Source: Thermoanaerobaculia bacterium (lineage in GTDB: Bacteria; Acidobacteriota; Thermoanaerobaculia; Multivoradales; Multivoraceae). From it: DNA of 64,000 nt. The translations under genes were made by a program, and so were the position numbers. The notes beneath the pieces were generated by a model that had not been told where the DNA came from, ran no database searches, and saw only the letters and a program-made list of their open reading frames with translations. Location: contig OY761158.1 of the NCBI GenBank assembly GCA_963664405.1, forward strand, positions 6,336,001 through 6,400,000, in the 5' to 3' direction. Numbering within the stretch: the first letter of the stretch is position 1; the number at the start of each line of letters is the position of its first letter. Below, piece after piece: positions 4,005-8,865 of the stretch.

Positions 4005-4684
4005 GTGATCGACGCACAGCTGCGCGGGGAGATCCGTCGTCTGTTCCTGGTCGAGAAGTGGAAAGTCGGCACGATCGCTCGACAGCTACAGCTGCACCCC
4101 TCAACCGTGCGCCGGGCGCTGGAGAAGTCCGGCGTGCTACCCCAGCAGCGACGAGGGAGGATGATCGATCCTTACCTGCCGTTCATCGAGCAGGTGCTCG
4201 GGACCTACCCACGACTGCCGGCGAGCCGTCTCTACACCATGGTGGTGGAGCGCGGCTATCCAGGAGGCCCGGATCAGTTTCGCCACCTGGTGGCCTCGAT
4301 GCGACCGAAGCCCCAGCGCGAGGCGTTTCTCTCGCTGCGCATGCTGCCAGGAGAGCAGGCGCAGGTCGACTGGGGCCACTTCGGTCGGCTCCGCGTCGGC
4401 CGGGCACATCGTCGGCTCTATGCCTTCGTCTTCGTGCTGTCGTTCTCGCGCACGGTCTTCGTGCACTTCACCCTCGACACTCGTCTCGAAACCTTCTTGC
4501 ACGCTCACCAGCTGGCCTTCCACTACGTCGACGGCGTCGTCAGGACCGTTCTGTACGACAACCTGCGAACCGCGGTGATCGAGCGGCAGGGAACCGCGGT
4601 GCGCTTCCATCCCGTGCTGCTCGATTTCGCCAGCCACTACGGCTTCCTTCCCACCGTCGCCGCGGTGGCTCGGGGAAATGAGAA
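4005..4684 (+). pseudogene. istA: IS21 transposase IstA, N-terminal part
   Basis: PGEQAQVDWG, LYDNLRT, ARGNEK; broken by the recombinase element. Confidence 0.92.
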
Positions 4685-4687
4685 GGG

Positions 4688-6781
4688 CTACGCTTCACAC
4701 TGCACCTCCTCCGTAGGGTTCGGTTCGACGTCGAGGCGGCGCCGTCGTTTCGAGAGTTTTCGGCCCTGCATTTTGACGGGCGGGTCGTCGCCGGGATGCT
4801 CGTAGAGGCACTCGTTCTTGTCGTTGTAGGCATGGGCACGCAGCAGGCCGTGGTTGCGCCATGTCTTCACCGTGTGGGTCGCGACACCCAGTAGGTCAGC
4901 CATCTCTTCGAGGGTAAGCATTCCCCCCTCACGCAGTCGGTCGTACCTCTTCTTGATGTCGTAGTCACGGCGCAGTCGCCGGACGATGCCGGCGTGAAAT
5001 CGTTTGCCCTCTCCGGAGAGATGGCCTCTGTCGTTGAGGATGCTCGCAATCTCGGCCTCGGTGTAGTCATCAAGCAGGGTATCAATCTCGGCAACGACCT
5101 GTTTCGAGGTTTGGCGTAACTCCCATGCTGTCGGCGGAATGGGCAGTTTGAGACTTCGTGTCGCGCCACCTCGGAAGCGGACACCGACAACGATCTCGTC
5201 GCCCTTCGTCAAGGTGACGTCCTCGATGAGCAAGCGCACCATGCGCTTGCGCTCGCGTTGAGGCGTCTTCGGGTCGTTCCACAACCGCGGGAAGTCGGTG
5301 GCGAGGGCGAGGATCTCTTCTCGTTGCTGGTCGCCGAGCTGTTGGTGATCTTGCTGGCGGCGCTGCTCGAGCTCCTCCTGTGCGTCGTGCAGCCCGCGCA
5401 GCCTCTCGTTCCACTCGGCCTCGAGGACATCCACCACGAGGCGGTTCCCCGGATCGACCTCCATGAAGCGACGCCGAGCCAAGTCAGCCTCCTGTCGAGC
5501 TCGCTGTACGTGCTGGCGCCGCAGGGAATCGGCCTCGTGGATCCGTGCATCGAGCTCGACCTGGACTTTCAGTGCAACCTCCAGAGTCACAGGCGTAACC
5601 GTCTCCACAAGCAGCTCTCCGATGGCCCGATCGATGCCCTTGCCCGGGATCGACTGACACTTGGGTGTCGCGGTGTCGATGCCCTCGCGCTGGCAGACGT
5701 ACTCGGGCCACTGAGTGCCCCTGCGCGTGTGATAGCGGACCGTCATCCGATGGCCACAAACGCCGCAGAGGACCAAGCCCTGCACCAGCGCTGGCCCCTC
5801 GCGCGGTGGGCTCTTGCGCCGGTCTCGGCCGTGGGCCTGGGCGTTGTCTCGTAGTCGTCTCAGGTTTTCTTCGAATTGTTCCCAGGGAATGTATCCGGGG
5901 TGCGCGTCGAGCAACAGCGCGGTCCACTCCTCCCGCGGAAGCGACTTGACCTCGACGGTGCCGTTGACGCGCCTTTGCGTGTGAGTGCGACCGAAACAGA
6001 AAGCGCCAGCGTAGCGGGGATTGTGCAGCACCCTCAGGACGCGCCAGTGGCGCAACGACTCCCACAACAGCTCTCCCTTGTGGGGGCCGAAGCGCGGCCG
6101 GCGCGGAAACCGCAAGCCTTGCTCGCGGAAGTGTTTGACCGTCGCCGAGGCCGAGCCCATACGCTCGAAGGTCTCGAACAGGTGCTCGAAGCTCCGTTGG
6201 ACCTGGCCGTCGGGATCGAGCACCACGTTACCGGTCGGGTCGTAGAGTAGGCCGACGGGTAACGGGGTTTGCAGCGCACCTCGGCGCGCCTGATTCAGAA
6301 TGCCTCCGCGCAGCCGAGCCCGCATCACGTGAAGCTCCGCCTCGCTCATCGTGCCCTTGAGCCCGAGCAGAAGGCGATCGTTGAAATCACTCGGGCTGTA
6401 GACCCCGTCCTCGTCAAGGATCAGCGTGTCGGTCAGCGCGCAGATCTCCAGCAGTCGATGCCAGTCCGTGCTATTGCGTGCCAGGCGCGAAACCTCCAGC
6501 CCGAGAACGATCCCGGCTCGGCCCATACCGACCTCGCCGACGAGCTTCTGAAAGCCCTCGCGGTCGACGCTGGAAGCTGCGGACTTACCCAGGTCCGAGT
6601 CGATCACGATGACTCGCTCGATGGGCCATCCCATCGCCACCGCGCGCTCTCGCAACGCGTACTGGCGTCTCGTGCTCTCCGTATTCTCGAACACCTGGCG
6701 CACGGTCGACTGGCGAACATACAGGTACGCATCGCGTCGCAGGTGGCTTGGGGTCACCTTCTGGTGGGCGCTTGCGCTCAT
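4688..6781 (-). CDS. Large serine recombinase (resolvase, recombinase, Zn-ribbon and C-terminal HTH domains)
   Basis: YLYVRQS catalytic Ser motif, DLGKS, EVSRLAR, LHNPRYAG, LCGVCGHRM. Confidence 0.95.
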   Translation of the reverse strand: MSASAHQKVTPSHLRRDAYLYVRQSTVRQVFENTESTRRQYALRERAVAMGWPIERVIVIDSDLGKSAASSVDREGFQKLVGEVGMGRAGIVLGLEVSRLARNSTDWHRLLEICALTDTLILDEDGVYSPSDFNDRLLLGLKGTMSEAELHVMRARLRGGILNQARRGALQTPLPVGLLYDPTGNVVLDPDGQVQRSFEHLFETFERMGSASATVKHFREQGLRFPRRPRFGPHKGELLWESLRHWRVLRVLHNPRYAGAFCFGRTHTQRRVNGTVEVKSLPREEWTALLLDAHPGYIPWEQFEENLRRLRDNAQAHGRDRRKSPPREGPALVQGLVLCGVCGHRMTVRYHTRRGTQWPEYVCQREGIDTATPKCQSIPGKGIDRAIGELLVETVTPVTLEVALKVQVELDARIHEADSLRRQHVQRARQEADLARRRFMEVDPGNRLVVDVLEAEWNERLRGLHDAQEELEQRRQQDHQQLGDQQREEILALATDFPRLWNDPKTPQRERKRMVRLLIEDVTLTKGDEIVVGVRFRGGATRSLKLPIPPTAWELRQTSKQVVAEIDTLLDDYTEAEIASILNDRGHLSGEGKRFHAGIVRRLRRDYDIKKRYDRLREGGMLTLEEMADLLGVATHTVKTWRNHGLLRAHAYNDKNECLYEHPGDDPPVKMQGRKLSKRRRRLDVEPNPTEEVQCEA

Positions 6782-7065
6782 GCGTGGTTCTCCTCTAGAT
6801 GGCTGAGAGCCATGGCGGCCAGCACGTTGATCAGATCCGCGCTCGTATCGTGAGGCAGTGCGGACGGCCTGGCTATCTCGGCGGACGGTGCCGGGGTCGG
6901 CGCGGGCATCTTGGACCCCTGTTCAACCCAAGCGGCCAGCCCTTGTCGCAGGAGAACGGCCAAGCCGAACCGAACCGATAGGAGCTGCCGCTTCGCCGCA
7001 TGTCCTCGGAGCTCCTCGTAGCGAGCGACATGGGCCGGAGCGTTCTGCTGGCGTGTCGCGCTCAT
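6778..7065 (-). CDS. Small hypothetical protein (Y4bB-like) of the recombinase element
   Basis: RYEELR...GLAVLLRQGLAAW; 4-bp overlaps with both neighbours. Confidence 0.8.
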   Translation of the reverse strand: MSATRQQNAPAHVARYEELRGHAAKRQLLSVRFGLAVLLRQGLAAWVEQGSKMPAPTPAPSAEIARPSALPHDTSADLINVLAAMALSHLEENHA

Positions 7066-7529
7066 GGCCGGCGTTTTTTTTCCTGGCGAGCCAGGGCTCG
7101 CTCAATGCTGCGCGGATGGATCGAGATGCCAAAGCGCTTCTGCACCCACTCGACCAGGGCGGTTGCATCTGCGTCCGGCTCCCCCTCCAGCCTGTCGTGC
7201 AGGGCCTCGACGACCTCCTCGGATAGCTTGTGGGCGCGGCGCGGCCCCGGCTTTCTTGGCAGCAACGCGGGTAGGCCGCCTTCTTCGTAAACCACCTGGG
7301 CGTGGTAGAAGGATGGGCGCGACAACCCGAAGCTTGCCGCGCTCCGGCTCACCGTGTGTCTGTCCACCCGGACACGGCGCAGCATCTCGTACTTGACCTG
7401 CACGAGGTCTCGAGGGTCGAAGAACTCGCTCGAGGTGAACAAATCGTCCGAGACCTTCTCCGGCTGGGGATGAAGGCACCCTCGTTGACGGAGGGCCTCG
7501 GCTTTCGGGTCGGGTCTGCGTCGCGGCAT
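7062..7529 (-). CDS. HTH protein (Y4bC-like) of the recombinase element
   Basis: FFDPRDLVQVKYEMLRRV, FGLSRPSFY, IHPRSIERAL; GAGGAG RBS before ATG 7529. Confidence 0.85.
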   Translation of the reverse strand: MPRRRPDPKAEALRQRGCLHPQPEKVSDDLFTSSEFFDPRDLVQVKYEMLRRVRVDRHTVSRSAASFGLSRPSFYHAQVVYEEGGLPALLPRKPGPRRAHKLSEEVVEALHDRLEGEPDADATALVEWVQKRFGISIHPRSIERALARQEKKRRP

Positions 7530-7541
7530 GGTCTCCTCATG

Positions 7542-7688
7542 GAATGTAATTCTAATTATGCCTTTCATGGATCCTCTGTCAAGGGGTGTCCACCAAGAGA
7601 GTACCGATAGATCGTGCATTAAATTGGCCTATCTCTACACTCCTGGTCACACTCTGGCACTCTTCCCGACATAATTGTGATTACATTC
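7542..7688. promoter_or_regulatory. AT-rich inverted repeat pair upstream of the HTH gene, putative operator/promoter
   Basis: GAATGTAATTCTAATTATG (7542-7560) vs rc of 7670-7688 GAATGTAATCACAATTATG, 16/19 match. Confidence 0.5.
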
Positions 7689-7741
7689 ACGGCATAATCT
7701 CCTTTACGCACGGTGCCCCTCAACCGTCCTCGCGCAGCTCT

Positions 7742-8036
7742 TCATCGCTCGCTCTCCCGGGTCAGCTTGGCGAGCTCGAGCAGGTCGGCCAAGCGGTACA
7801 TCGATCTGCCTGCGGAGAGGACAACCACGGGGTCCTCGGCCACCGCACTCGTCCAACGCGCTGGAAGGGAGCGTAGCTCCTCGCATTCATCCAGGTAGAA
7901 GACCCGGTCCTCGCCCCAGCACTGGCGATAGTGAGCCAGCTCGTACTCACGCCCCAACAGCGGGTGGAACGGATGGGTTACCCGAAAACGTCGTTGCTCA
8001 CAATCTGTATCGGGTGCATTCGACCATTGAGCCCAA
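7742..8036 (-). CDS. DUF5372 (Y4bD/Y4pK-like) protein; lacks a start codon in the integrated state
   Basis: FRVTHPFHPL...WGEDRV...LPARWT...LLEL; no ATG/GTG/TTG between attR and the conserved THPFHP. Confidence 0.8.
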
Positions 8037-8865
8037 AGGCCGCGTCGAGCGCGCAATCCGCTTCCTGCGAAGCTCGTTCTTCGGCGCCCGAACGGTGAGC
8101 GATTTGGATCGTCTGAATCGGCAGGTCCTGGAATGGTGCCAGAGGTCGCAGCGCAGACCCTGGCCGCAGGACCGACAGCGAACCGTGAAAAGCGCCCTGG
8201 CCCAGGAACGACCTCGACTGCTTGAGCTTCCCGGAGACGACTTCGAAACCGACCTGCGACTGGAGATCAAGGTCAGAAAGACGCCGATCGTGCGCTTCGA
8301 CCTCAACGACTACTCGGTGCCGCACAGTCATGTGCAGAGGACCGTCACGCTCCTCGCCAGCGAGCATCGGGTGCGGATCCTCGATGGCCAGGAGCTCCTC
8401 GCCGAGCACCCTCGCTCGTACTCCCGGGGCGAGCAGATCCTCGATCCTCAACACCTCGAGGAGCTCCTCGCTCACAAACGCAGGGCCCGACGACACCGGG
8501 GCTTCCATCGGCTGTTTTCCGCTGTGCCTCGATGCGAAGAGCTGATGCAGCAGCTCGCCGAGCGAGGCGAGAACCTCGGAACGCAGACCGCCGGCCTGCT
8601 CCGACTCCTGCGCCAGTACGGCCCCCAGCGACTCGACAAAGCCGTGCGCGAAGCGCTCCTGAACCACGCACCGCGATTCCAGTCCGTCCGGCTCCTACTC
8701 GAACGGCACCAGCGCGGCCTCGGTCAGCCCCCGGCTTTACCGGTGCCGCTCAGCCAGGAGCTCCAACAGCGAGATCTCTCCGTGAGACCGCACAACCTCG
8801 AGGACTACGACCAACTTGGAGGCAACGACGATGGCCCGACCCAGGAAGAGTCCAACGATCCCTGA
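8037..8865 (+). pseudogene. istA: IS21 transposase IstA, C-terminal part
   Basis: GRVERAIRFLRSSFF, VRFDLNDYSVP; in frame with 4005-4684 (1509 nt in total). Confidence 0.92.

What the first reader, a model, noticed from the sequence alone, without database searches (positions are those of the whole stretch)
4683..8036. Excision-assembled gene: circularisation of the serine-recombinase element gives the DUF5372 gene its RBS and start codon
Seen: the DUF5372/Y4bD-like ORF (minus strand, 8036-7742) has no start codon inside the element ahead of its conserved THPFHP core. At the opposite end, overlapping the last codons of the recombinase, is GGAGGAGG-TGCAGT-GTG (4712-4696). In the integrated state this start reads into antisense istA. 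Joining the two ends gives GTG AAG CGT AGC CCT TGG GCT CAA TGG..., a 102-aa in-frame ORF (MKRSPWAQWSNAPDT...FRVTHPFHP) overlapping the recombinase stop. The frame holds whether the crossover is at AA or at the nearby GGC. Inference: attP lies inside this gene, so the protein is made only from the excised circle. That would be a recombination-state switch, for example a directionality, targeting or circle-maintenance factor. I do not know of this being described for DUF5372.
Basis: partly seen in the sequence, partly recalled or inferred. Interest (0 to 1): 0.92.

Follow-up and report, generated by a model that had tools for sequence, protein, structure and literature searches.

The report
Gene completed only in excised circle
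A 3.35-kb jumping element keeps the body of a small gene at one end and that gene's ribosome-binding site and start codon at the other end, so the protein, which is predicted to dock on the element's own recombinase, can only be made once the element has cut itself out and closed into a circle.

Summary
Window 4683-8036 is a large-serine-recombinase element. The genome holds 5 copies at 99-100% identity. It also holds 21 exact empty sites, and these fix the crossover at a shared TT.

Joining the ends puts the GGAGGAGG plus GTG at 4712-4696 in frame with the start-less DUF5372 body at 8035-7742, giving 102 aa.

The layout is conserved. Of 81 loci examined, 45 had both ends recognisable and 42 of those carry the same central dinucleotide at both ends. 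All 42 have an ATG, GTG or TTG directly after the right-arm motif, or one codon later. In all 42 that start is in frame and open into DUF5372. The mirrored left arm has a start at that position in 2 of 39 distinct arm pairs, against 36 of 39 on the right.

New here: a complex prediction places DUF5372 on the zinc-ribbon domain and the base of the coiled-coil of the recombinase. That is where directionality factors bind. The score was 0.69 and the best control 0.00.

No circle junction was found in contigs. Expression and function are untested.

The scan found this layout before on other DNA, in at least 7 other genomes. No paper in the searched library mentions DUF5372.

The parts
4683..8036 (-). 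Whole element. It is 3354 bases including both copies of the shared TT, and 3352 bases are skipped in the empty site.
   Evidence: Five copies at 99-100% identity. The ends were defined by comparing copies, by the empty-site joint 4682->8035 in 4 of 4 runs and by 21 exact empty sites in the genome.
4683..4684 (-). Crossover dinucleotide TT (AA on the + strand) at the recombinase end.
   Evidence: It is the only sequence shared by the ends in all five copies. It sits at the exact centre of TGCA-N16-XX-N16-TGCA.
8035..8036 (-). Crossover dinucleotide TT at the DUF5372 end. Its second T is the first base of the first element-internal DUF5372 codon.
4685..4706 (-). Right attP arm: the GGTGCAGT motif plus 14 bases up to the crossover. 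It carries the start codon and four further codons of DUF5372.
   Evidence: The motif and its spacing are conserved in 45 loci. Per-position profile.
4705..4712 (-). Shine-Dalgarno-like GGAGGAGG, 6 bases upstream of the start. It overlaps the last recombinase codons.
   Evidence: An SD-like 4-mer is present in 34 of 39 right arms against 3 of 39 mirrored left arms.
4696..4698 (-). GTG start codon of the joined DUF5372 gene. It lies 8 bases upstream of the recombinase stop at 4690-4688.
   Evidence: A start is at this position in 36 of 39 distinct right arms and one codon later in the other 3.
8013..8034 (-). Left attP arm: 14 bases plus the mirrored motif. It encodes part of the unstructured DUF5372 leader.
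   Evidence: The leader residues are low-confidence in the model.
7742..8035 (-). DUF5372 body: 97 codons plus a stop. It has no start codon of its own ahead of the conserved core.
   Evidence: Pfam PF17342 at E 1.9e-20. No internal start. Structure model with mean pLDDT 77.
7555..7582 (-). Sigma-70-like promoter TTGACA-16-CATAAT (11 of 12 matches) in the AT-rich gap, upstream of the HTH gene.
   Evidence: 2 sites found against a mean of 0.5 in shuffles. This is a consensus match only.
7062..7529 (-). HTH protein gene (155 aa from the ATG at 7529). Its stop overlaps the next start (ATGA).
   Evidence: Pfam HTH_32, HTH_29 and HTH_28. Homologues align from residue 1. Conserved in 41 of 41 two-ended relatives.
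6778..7065 (-). Small ORF of 95 aa with no family match. Its stop overlaps the recombinase start.
   Evidence: Detectable in 22 of 41 two-ended relatives at E <= 1e-3.
4688..6781 (-). Large serine recombinase of 697 aa. It has the resolvase, recombinase and zinc-ribbon domains, a coiled-coil at 397-478, and a C-terminal HTH_17/MerR-like stretch.
   Evidence: Pfam. Structure model with mean pLDDT 79.

Best explanation
The element is a four-gene operon that is circularly permuted by its own attachment site. In the joined form the order is promoter, HTH gene, small ORF, recombinase, DUF5372. Each gene start overlaps or closely precedes the previous stop.

attP has the geometry TGCA-N16-crossover-N16-TGCA. 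It lies inside the first roughly 13 codons of DUF5372. These codons encode an unstructured leader that tolerates the DNA-site constraints.

Integration cuts the gene after codon 5. The Shine-Dalgarno sequence, the start and five codons stay at the recombinase end and read into flanking DNA. The 97-codon body sits at the other end with no start codon of its own and no promoter identified ahead of it.

So the recombinase is made in both states, but DUF5372 is made only from joined ends, meaning the excised circle or a head-to-tail tandem. There it is translationally coupled to the recombinase.

I infer that DUF5372 is a recombinase cofactor that docks on the zinc-ribbon domain and the base of the coiled-coil, the site used by recombination directionality factors. 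The enzyme would then have one cofactor state on attL/attR and another on attP. That would give a directionality switch set by the DNA state itself.

Which way it pushes is not shown. My preferred reading is that it favours integration of the circle, or blocks the reverse reaction. A canonical excision-promoting factor made only after excision would trap the circle.

My odds: gene architecture and junction-only start 0.85; binds the recombinase 0.6; favours integration 0.35.
For: Shown by sequence:
- The ends and the TT crossover are fixed by 5 copies, by empty-site joints in 4 of 4 runs and by 21 empty sites in the genome.
- The joined frame is open for 102 codons.
- Two of the 5 copies have an in-frame stop six codons outside the element and no start.

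Conservation across relatives:
- Of 81 loci (the window's copy plus 80 relatives at 37-79% identity from many phyla), 45 have both ends recognisable. Of those, 42 have equal central dinucleotides: TT in 34, and CT, AT, AA, CG (three loci), TC and GC in the other 8.
- All 42 have a start directly after GGTGCAGT (39) or one codon later (3). All 42 are in frame and stop-free into the core.
- The start and the SD are specific to the right arm.
- The recombinase stop ranges from 16 bases after the start of the motif to 44 bases before it, and the recombinase reads the motif in different frames, including an ATGA stop/start overlap. So recombinase coding does not explain the conservation.
- The leader is 20 codons long in 39 of 42 loci.
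- A Mesorhizobium plasmid copy that NCBI annotates as Y4bD/Y4pK shows the same layout.

Operon logic: a promoter-like site lies upstream of the HTH gene, and gene boundaries overlap.

Cofactor inference:
- Complex prediction scored 0.69, with the best of 3 controls at 0.00. That mark was reached by 58 of 80 solved complexes and 2 of 110 mismatched pairs. The counts hold only roughly because my own alignments were used. The runs agree in at least 86% of contacts, and the partner's pLDDT is at least 69.
- Contacts are recombinase 338-343, 394-413 and 482-541, and DUF5372 21-26 and 69-96. These include the invariant HPFHP motif and the C-terminal helix.
- The recombinase model places the coiled-coil at 397-478, so the contacts flank its base.
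Against: - No molecule with joined ends was seen. There was no back-joint in Logan contigs of 4 runs (which left 22 loose ends unlisted). The junction occurs 0 times in the assembly. The consensus junction motif gave 5 hits in metagenome contigs and 4 in viral contigs, all from one unrelated AT-rich family with no DUF5372 or recombinase.
- No RNA, ribosome or peptide evidence was obtainable.
- The right-arm ATG could in principle be an asymmetric recombinase contact.
- 14 of 42 relatives have GTG as the Val codon two residues before the core. 7 of 42 have another internal in-frame start. 11 of 42 have an in-frame start in the flank. Gene callers use these in 47 and 27 of 120 database homologues. 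So some copies might make a shortened or flank-fused protein while integrated. The window's own copy has an in-frame TTG seven codons outside the element.
- One locus, L015, has unequal end dinucleotides and a stop if the right-end letter is used.
- Many loci are MAG contigs and several are near-duplicates, leaving 39 distinct arm pairs.
- The complex result is a model's own confidence, not binding.
- The fold search gave only weak matches: best E 4.1e-3, to SH3/KOW-like barrels of ribosomal protein eS4.
Confidence: 0.72

Rival explanations
1. The conserved ATG/GTG and the purine run in the right arm are asymmetric DNA contacts of the recombinase, not translation signals. DUF5372 is translated while integrated, from the Val GTG, an internal TTG, a near-cognate codon or a start in the flank.
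For: The start and SD lie inside the recombinase-binding arm. 14 of 42 loci have GTG at the Val codon, 7 of 42 have other internal starts and 11 of 42 have flank starts. Gene callers pick such starts.
Against: The window's element and 20 other loci (21 of 42) have no internal in-frame start at all. Starting at the Val codon or downstream would remove part of the Pfam-matched core. When the canonical position is not a start, the next in-frame codon is (3 of 42 loci). The DUF5372 frame has 0 of 39 stops against 27 and 26 of 39 in the other frames. The 20-codon leader length is conserved.
Confidence: 0.1
2. The architecture is real, but DUF5372 is a canonical excision-promoting RDF. A rare first circle makes it, and it acts in trans on the other integrated copies (5 in this genome). 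This gives a burst of excision. Integration follows when the protein is diluted.
For: The predicted binding site is the RDF site. The element is multi-copy. One copy, L004, has chimeric flanks, which suggests recombination between copies.
Against: In canonical systems the RDF inhibits attP x attB (PMC11722253 passages). A circle that keeps making it would then block its own integration. The first excision would still need another route.
Confidence: 0.15
3. The joined form that matters is a head-to-tail tandem of two element copies rather than a free circle. The gene would then be expressed from tandem junctions in the chromosome.
For: A tandem gives the same junction sequence. From my own knowledge (not checked in any call), tandem junctions drive expression in IS21.
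Against: No tandem junction exists in this assembly (0 matches) or in any of the 80 relatives' loci. Recombinase hits upstream of DUF5372 in L025 and L031 end about 0.9-1.4 kb away.
Confidence: 0.05

Closest known systems
SSV-type ('suicidal') integrases of archaeal viruses and plasmids (SSV1, pTN3, pT26-2)
   Same: The attachment site lies inside a gene of the element. That gene is therefore whole only in the circular form and is split by integration (passages of the review PMC8371274).
   Different: There the split gene is the tyrosine recombinase itself, and it is split in mid-gene. The review says such recombinases are found only in archaea. Here the enzyme is a bacterial large serine recombinase that stays intact. 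The split gene is a small accessory protein, and the cut separates the SD, the start and five codons from the body.
Tn4451/Tn4453 (large serine recombinase TnpX) and related Tn5397
   Same: A small non-phage element moved by a large serine recombinase through a circle. It uses a 2-bp crossover and has many target sites. No RDF is needed for excision (passages of PMC5704250 and PMC3158075). From recall only (Lyras & Rood 2000, seen in no call): the circle joint forms the tnpX promoter.
   Different: That case assembles a promoter for the recombinase, not a coding sequence for a cofactor. The multi-targeting clade typically carries DUF4368 (PMC10083194 passages), which Pfam did not find in this recombinase. 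Here a promoter-like site lies inside the element.
Tn916: circularisation places the transfer genes behind the xis-int operon
   Same: Excision physically links genes at one end to expression signals at the other end (PMC5812530 passages).
   Different: That link is at the level of transcription and the genes keep their own starts. It is a tyrosine recombinase ICE of 18 kb.
Recombination directionality factors of large serine integrases (SprB, gp3 of phiC31, gp47 of Bxb1)
   Same: A small protein encoded by the element and predicted to bind the zinc-ribbon domain and the coiled-coil base. A C-terminal helix is in the interface (PMC11722253 passages).
   Different: There is no sequence or fold relation. 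Known RDF genes are intact in the prophage and are regulated by transcription. Here the gene is dismantled by integration, so its logic is probably inverted or different.

Membership tests
Pfam PF17342 (DUF5372; NCBI names 'DUF5372 family protein' and 'Y4bD/Y4pK family protein') | Match to the family profile above the curated cut-off | tested here: met
   E 1.9e-20 and 73.1 bits against a cut-off of 25, covering profile positions 1-73 of 78. Database homologues carry PF17342. NCBI names are seen on plasmid homologues.
Large serine recombinase (integrase) family | Resolvase catalytic domain, recombinase domain and zinc-ribbon domain, with an inserted coiled-coil | tested here: met
   Pfam Resolvase at 18-169, Recombinase at 199-312 and Zn_ribbon_recom at 334-389. 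Long antiparallel helices at 397-441 and 447-478 in the model.
Large serine recombinase (integrase) family | Conservative recombination at a central 2-bp crossover, with no target duplication | tested here: met
   TT is shared by attL, attR and the empty site, and 3352 bases are skipped. The dinucleotide is equal at both ends in 42 of 45 loci.
Recombination directionality factor (functional class) | Binds its cognate integrase at the zinc-ribbon domain and coiled-coil base | tested here: inconclusive
   Prediction only. The score was 0.69 against a best control of 0.00, with contacts at 338-343, 394-413 and 482-541. No experiment.
Recombination directionality factor (functional class) | Switches the allowed reaction between attP x attB and attL x attR | not testable with these tools
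   Needs recombination assays.
SSV-type 'suicidal' arrangement | The att site lies inside an element gene that is split on integration | tested here: met
SSV-type 'suicidal' arrangement | The split gene is the element's own tyrosine integrase | tested here: not met
   The recombinase is a serine enzyme and is intact at 6781-4688. The split gene is DUF5372.
TndX/TnpX-like multi-targeting LSR clade | DUF4368 domain, present in 63% of that clade according to PMC10083194 | tested here: not met
   No DUF4368 among the Pfam hits at E <= 0.01. An HTH_17/MerR-like stretch at 621-660 is found instead.

The most novel reading that the evidence does not exclude
A widespread, undescribed family of 3.3-kb serine-recombinase elements solves the directionality problem without regulation. 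The gene for the recombinase's cofactor is built by excision and dismantled by integration. The enzyme therefore carries the cofactor only when its substrate is attP. The cofactor works with logic inverted relative to phage RDFs, being needed for or favouring integration rather than excision. The TT-type members aim this machine at the codons just before the catalytic glutamate of other elements' DDE transposase genes.
Probability: 0.35. Interest if true: 0.9.

Novelty: new variant of a known kind. Interest (0 to 1): 0.8.

Why it matters
How a recombinase knows which direction to run is a central question for serine integrases and for their use as genome-engineering tools. Known answers rely on a separately regulated directionality factor. 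Here the DNA state itself would decide whether the cofactor gene exists, which amounts to a hard-wired one-bit memory.

If DUF5372 is confirmed as a cofactor, three things follow:
- It gives a function to a family of unknown function that no paper in the searched library mentions.
- It adds a new structural class of integrase partner.
- It suggests a compact, self-resetting switch for synthetic biology.

There is also an annotation consequence. Gene callers give these genes arbitrary starts. Among the 120 listed database homologues, the conserved core begins after 2 residues in 27 proteins and after 17 residues in 47, and after other, scattered lengths in most of the rest.

Tried and rejected
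Looking for the joined form in public data:
- Logan contigs of runs X1-X4 laid on window 4300-8400 showed only the empty-site joint and flanks of other copies. No back-joint was listed, and 22 loose ends were not shown. Contigs cannot show rare molecules.
- An exact search of the genome assembly found the junction 0 times.
- The consensus junction motif gave 5 loci in metagenome contigs and 4 in viral contigs. All belong to one unrelated AT-rich family with a 5-codon ORF and no DUF5372 or recombinase by tblastn.
- Terminal-overlap tests for circular assembly on 35 short contigs gave 0 overlaps.
- Among 120 database homologues, no protein had a junction-type N-terminus.

My first end-finder, based on inverted repeats, was too noisy. 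The second and third mis-set some ends: L018, L048, L050, L054 and L078. That call did not require a start codon when choosing the right motif.

Loci dropped before the count of 45:
- 30 loci without a full recombinase 3' part in the locus.
- 3 loci without a right motif (L026, L031, L071).
- 2 loci without a recognisable left end. L032 is frame-shifted between leader and core. L064 is the other.
- 1 locus without the core (L081).

Of the 45 counted, L015, L051 and L061 failed.

Fold and sequence searches for DUF5372 gave no informative relative:
- A PDB profile search gave a best E of 0.2.
- Foldseek against PDB gave a best E of 4.1e-3, to SH3/KOW-like barrels.

Three annotated plasmid homologues were examined. 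In L096 and L098 my search found no right-end motif with a start codon. L097 shows the layout.

Literature:
- 'DUF5372' gave 0 papers.
- 'y4bd' searched anywhere in a word gave 6 papers, of which 5 were listed. All are on unrelated topics by title and abstract start.
- A six-term search on circular form, attP and start codon gave 24 papers, of which 15 were listed. By title and abstract start, none describes a split accessory gene.
- A search for the Tn4451 joint promoter found no usable passage, so that point rests on recall.

Supplementary files were not opened. They might list such elements, for example in PMC10083194.

Full report
WHAT IS THERE

On the minus strand, window 8036-4683 is a compact element with these parts in order:
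- A DUF5372 reading frame at 8035-7742. Pfam PF17342 matches at E 1.9e-20.
- An AT-rich gap holding a near-consensus sigma-70-like promoter at 7582-7555 (11 of 12 matches).
- A helix-turn-helix protein gene at 7529-7062.
- A 95-codon ORF at 7065-6778.
- A 697-aa large serine recombinase gene at 6781-4688.

The last three genes overlap by ATGA at their boundaries.

The element interrupts an IS21-type istA gene on the opposite strand. The rebuilt empty site reads through the conserved glutamate motif of that transposase.

ENDS AND CROSSOVER

The genome is one contig of 6.78 Mb. It holds five copies at 99-100% identity in three kinds of flank. The only letters shared by both ends in all five copies are TT.

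Contigs of four of four public runs join 4682 directly to 8035. They skip 3352 bases, with two letters fitting either side. The assembly holds 21 exact copies of that empty site.

So the element moves by conservative exchange at a central TT, without target duplication, as serine recombinases do. The two arms are mirror images with the geometry TGCA-N16-TT-N16-TGCA.

THE OBSERVATION

The DUF5372 frame has no ATG, GTG or TTG between the element end and its conserved HPFHP core.

In two of the five copies an in-frame stop lies six codons outside the element with no start in between. In the window's own copy an in-frame TTG happens to lie seven codons out in antisense istA.

At the other end, GGAGGAGG, six bases and GTG overlap the last recombinase codons. 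With TT as crossover, that start is in frame with the DUF5372 body, giving 102 codons.

IS IT MORE THAN CHANCE?

I fetched 80 relatives of the protein (37-79% identity) from one-genome-per-species contigs. They span many phyla. The gene order DUF5372, HTH, recombinase recurs.

The count covered 81 loci, with the right-arm motif chosen without regard to a start codon:
- 45 loci had both ends recognisable.
- 42 of those had the same central dinucleotide at both predicted ends. It was TT in 34, and CT, AT, AA, CG (three loci), TC or GC in the other 8. This validates the end calls independently.
- All 42 had ATG, GTG or TTG directly after the GGTGCAGT motif (39) or one codon later (3).
- All 42 were in frame and stop-free into the core.

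Controls used the 39 distinct arm pairs:

| Feature | Right arm | Mirrored left arm |
|---|---|---|
| Start at the fixed position | 36 of 39 | 2 of 39 |
| Start there or one codon later | 39 of 39 | 4 of 39 |
| Shine-Dalgarno-like 4-mer | 34 of 39 | 3 of 39 |

Stops in the five leader codons occur in 0 of 39 arm pairs in the DUF5372 frame, against 27 and 26 of 39 in the other two frames.

The recombinase stop wanders from 16 bases after the start of the motif to 44 bases before it. The recombinase also reads the motif in different frames, including an ATGA stop/start overlap. Recombinase coding therefore cannot explain the conservation.

The leader is 20 codons long in 39 of 42 loci. 21 of 42 loci have no internal in-frame start, 14 have only GTG as the Val codon of the core, and 7 have another one. 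31 of 42 have no in-frame start in the flank.

A Mesorhizobium plasmid copy that NCBI calls 'Y4bD/Y4pK family protein' shows the same layout.

Exceptions:
- L015 has TT against TC at its ends, and a stop if the right-end letter is used.
- L051 and L061 had ends that were not truly found.
- L032 is frame-shifted.

WHAT THE PROTEIN MAY DO

The structure model (mean pLDDT 77) has a disordered N-terminus (residues 1-12 below pLDDT 50), four strands and two helices. The only structural matches are weak ones to SH3/KOW-like barrels.

The att site thus sits in a leader that carries no fold.

A complex prediction with the recombinase passed its controls. The score was 0.69 and the best of 3 controls 0.00. 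That mark was reached by 58 of 80 solved complexes and 2 of 110 mismatched pairs, and the counts hold only roughly because my own alignments were used. The runs agree in at least 86% of contacts, and the partner's pLDDT is at least 69.

The interface uses the invariant HPFHP motif and the C-terminal helix of DUF5372. On the recombinase it uses residues 338-343, 394-413 and 482-541. In the recombinase model these are the first zinc-ribbon strand and the segments that flank the coiled-coil at 397-478.

[quoted passage not shown] The resemblance is in binding mode, not in sequence or fold. It is a prediction, not a measurement.

MECHANISM PROPOSED

In the joined form the element is one operon: promoter, HTH gene, small ORF, recombinase, DUF5372. 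DUF5372 is translationally coupled to the recombinase.

Integration cuts the last gene after codon 5. The recombinase is therefore free of this cofactor on attL/attR and loaded with it on attP.

The gene layout and its conservation are shown. Three steps are inferred:
- that the junction start is used;
- that the protein binds the recombinase;
- that it biases the reaction.

I prefer a bias toward integration. A factor that promotes excision and blocks integration would trap the circle if it were made only after excision. Passages of PMC5704250 show a precedent, Tn4451, for a transposon-type serine recombinase that excises without an RDF.

WHAT IS NOT SHOWN

No circle or tandem junction was found in contigs or assemblies. 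No junction-type protein appears among 120 database homologues.

COMPARISON WITH KNOWN SYSTEMS

- SSV-type 'suicidal' integrases are the closest in principle. They have an att site inside an element gene, but the split gene is the tyrosine integrase, and the review says they are archaeal only.
- Tn4451 is the closest in enzyme and lifestyle. Its joint promoter is recalled and was not seen in any call.
- Tn916 links genes to signals across the joint at the level of transcription.
- The multi-targeting LSR clade of PMC10083194 typically carries DUF4368, which is absent here.
- No paper in the library holds 'DUF5372'.

The scan itself has reported the same layout in at least 7 other genomes. Those notes agree with my counts but are not independent evidence.

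VERDICT

The new element here is a predicted RDF-site interaction. I class it as a new variant of a known kind and score interest at 0.8.

Noticed in passing
window 4660-4700 and 8020-8060; loci L001-L086: Most TT-type elements with readable flanks sit antisense inside DDE (rve-type) transposase genes of several IS families. They sit at the codons for K/N-G-x-V/I-E, just before the catalytic glutamate. Elements with other central dinucleotides sit in other genes; for example, the CG-type sits in a Cys-rich motif.
   Followed up: partly
L004 (own genome, copy 4): This copy has an IS21 istA flank on the DUF5372 side and an IS3-like flank (antisense ...CWDN) on the recombinase side. No reciprocal copy is among the five. 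This suggests recombination between two copies followed by loss.
   Followed up: no
L073, L079, L080 (CG), L044 (AT), L083 (GC): Some family members have palindromic central dinucleotides at both ends. In serine recombinases this should abolish the polarity of strand exchange. The true crossover may be offset by one base, or polarity may be set in another way.
   Followed up: no
window 7530: A 3-base insertion/deletion polymorphism distinguishes the copies (2 without, 3 with). It lies between the Shine-Dalgarno sequence and the ATG of the HTH gene, and is also seen in contigs of 3 of 4 runs. It changes the SD-to-start spacing of the first operon gene.
   Followed up: no
window 4801-4920 (recombinase residues 621-660): The recombinase carries a C-terminal HTH_17/MerR-like stretch below the Pfam cut-offs (23.8 bits against 27; 21.7 against 21.6). 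The model has further helices after the zinc-ribbon domain. This extension is unusual for serine integrases and might read the target.
   Followed up: no
L087-L095: An unrelated AT-rich sequence family in phage and freshwater-type metagenome contigs matches the same palindromic motif geometry (GGTGCAGT-ATG-N11-TT-N14-ACTGCACC). It has no DUF5372 or related recombinase nearby. It may be another recombinase site or a chance palindrome.
   Followed up: partly
L027, L060 and L052: In some relatives the recombinase gene is itself interrupted by another recombinase-bearing insertion, or the element is about 6 kb long. This suggests nesting of elements within elements.
   Followed up: no
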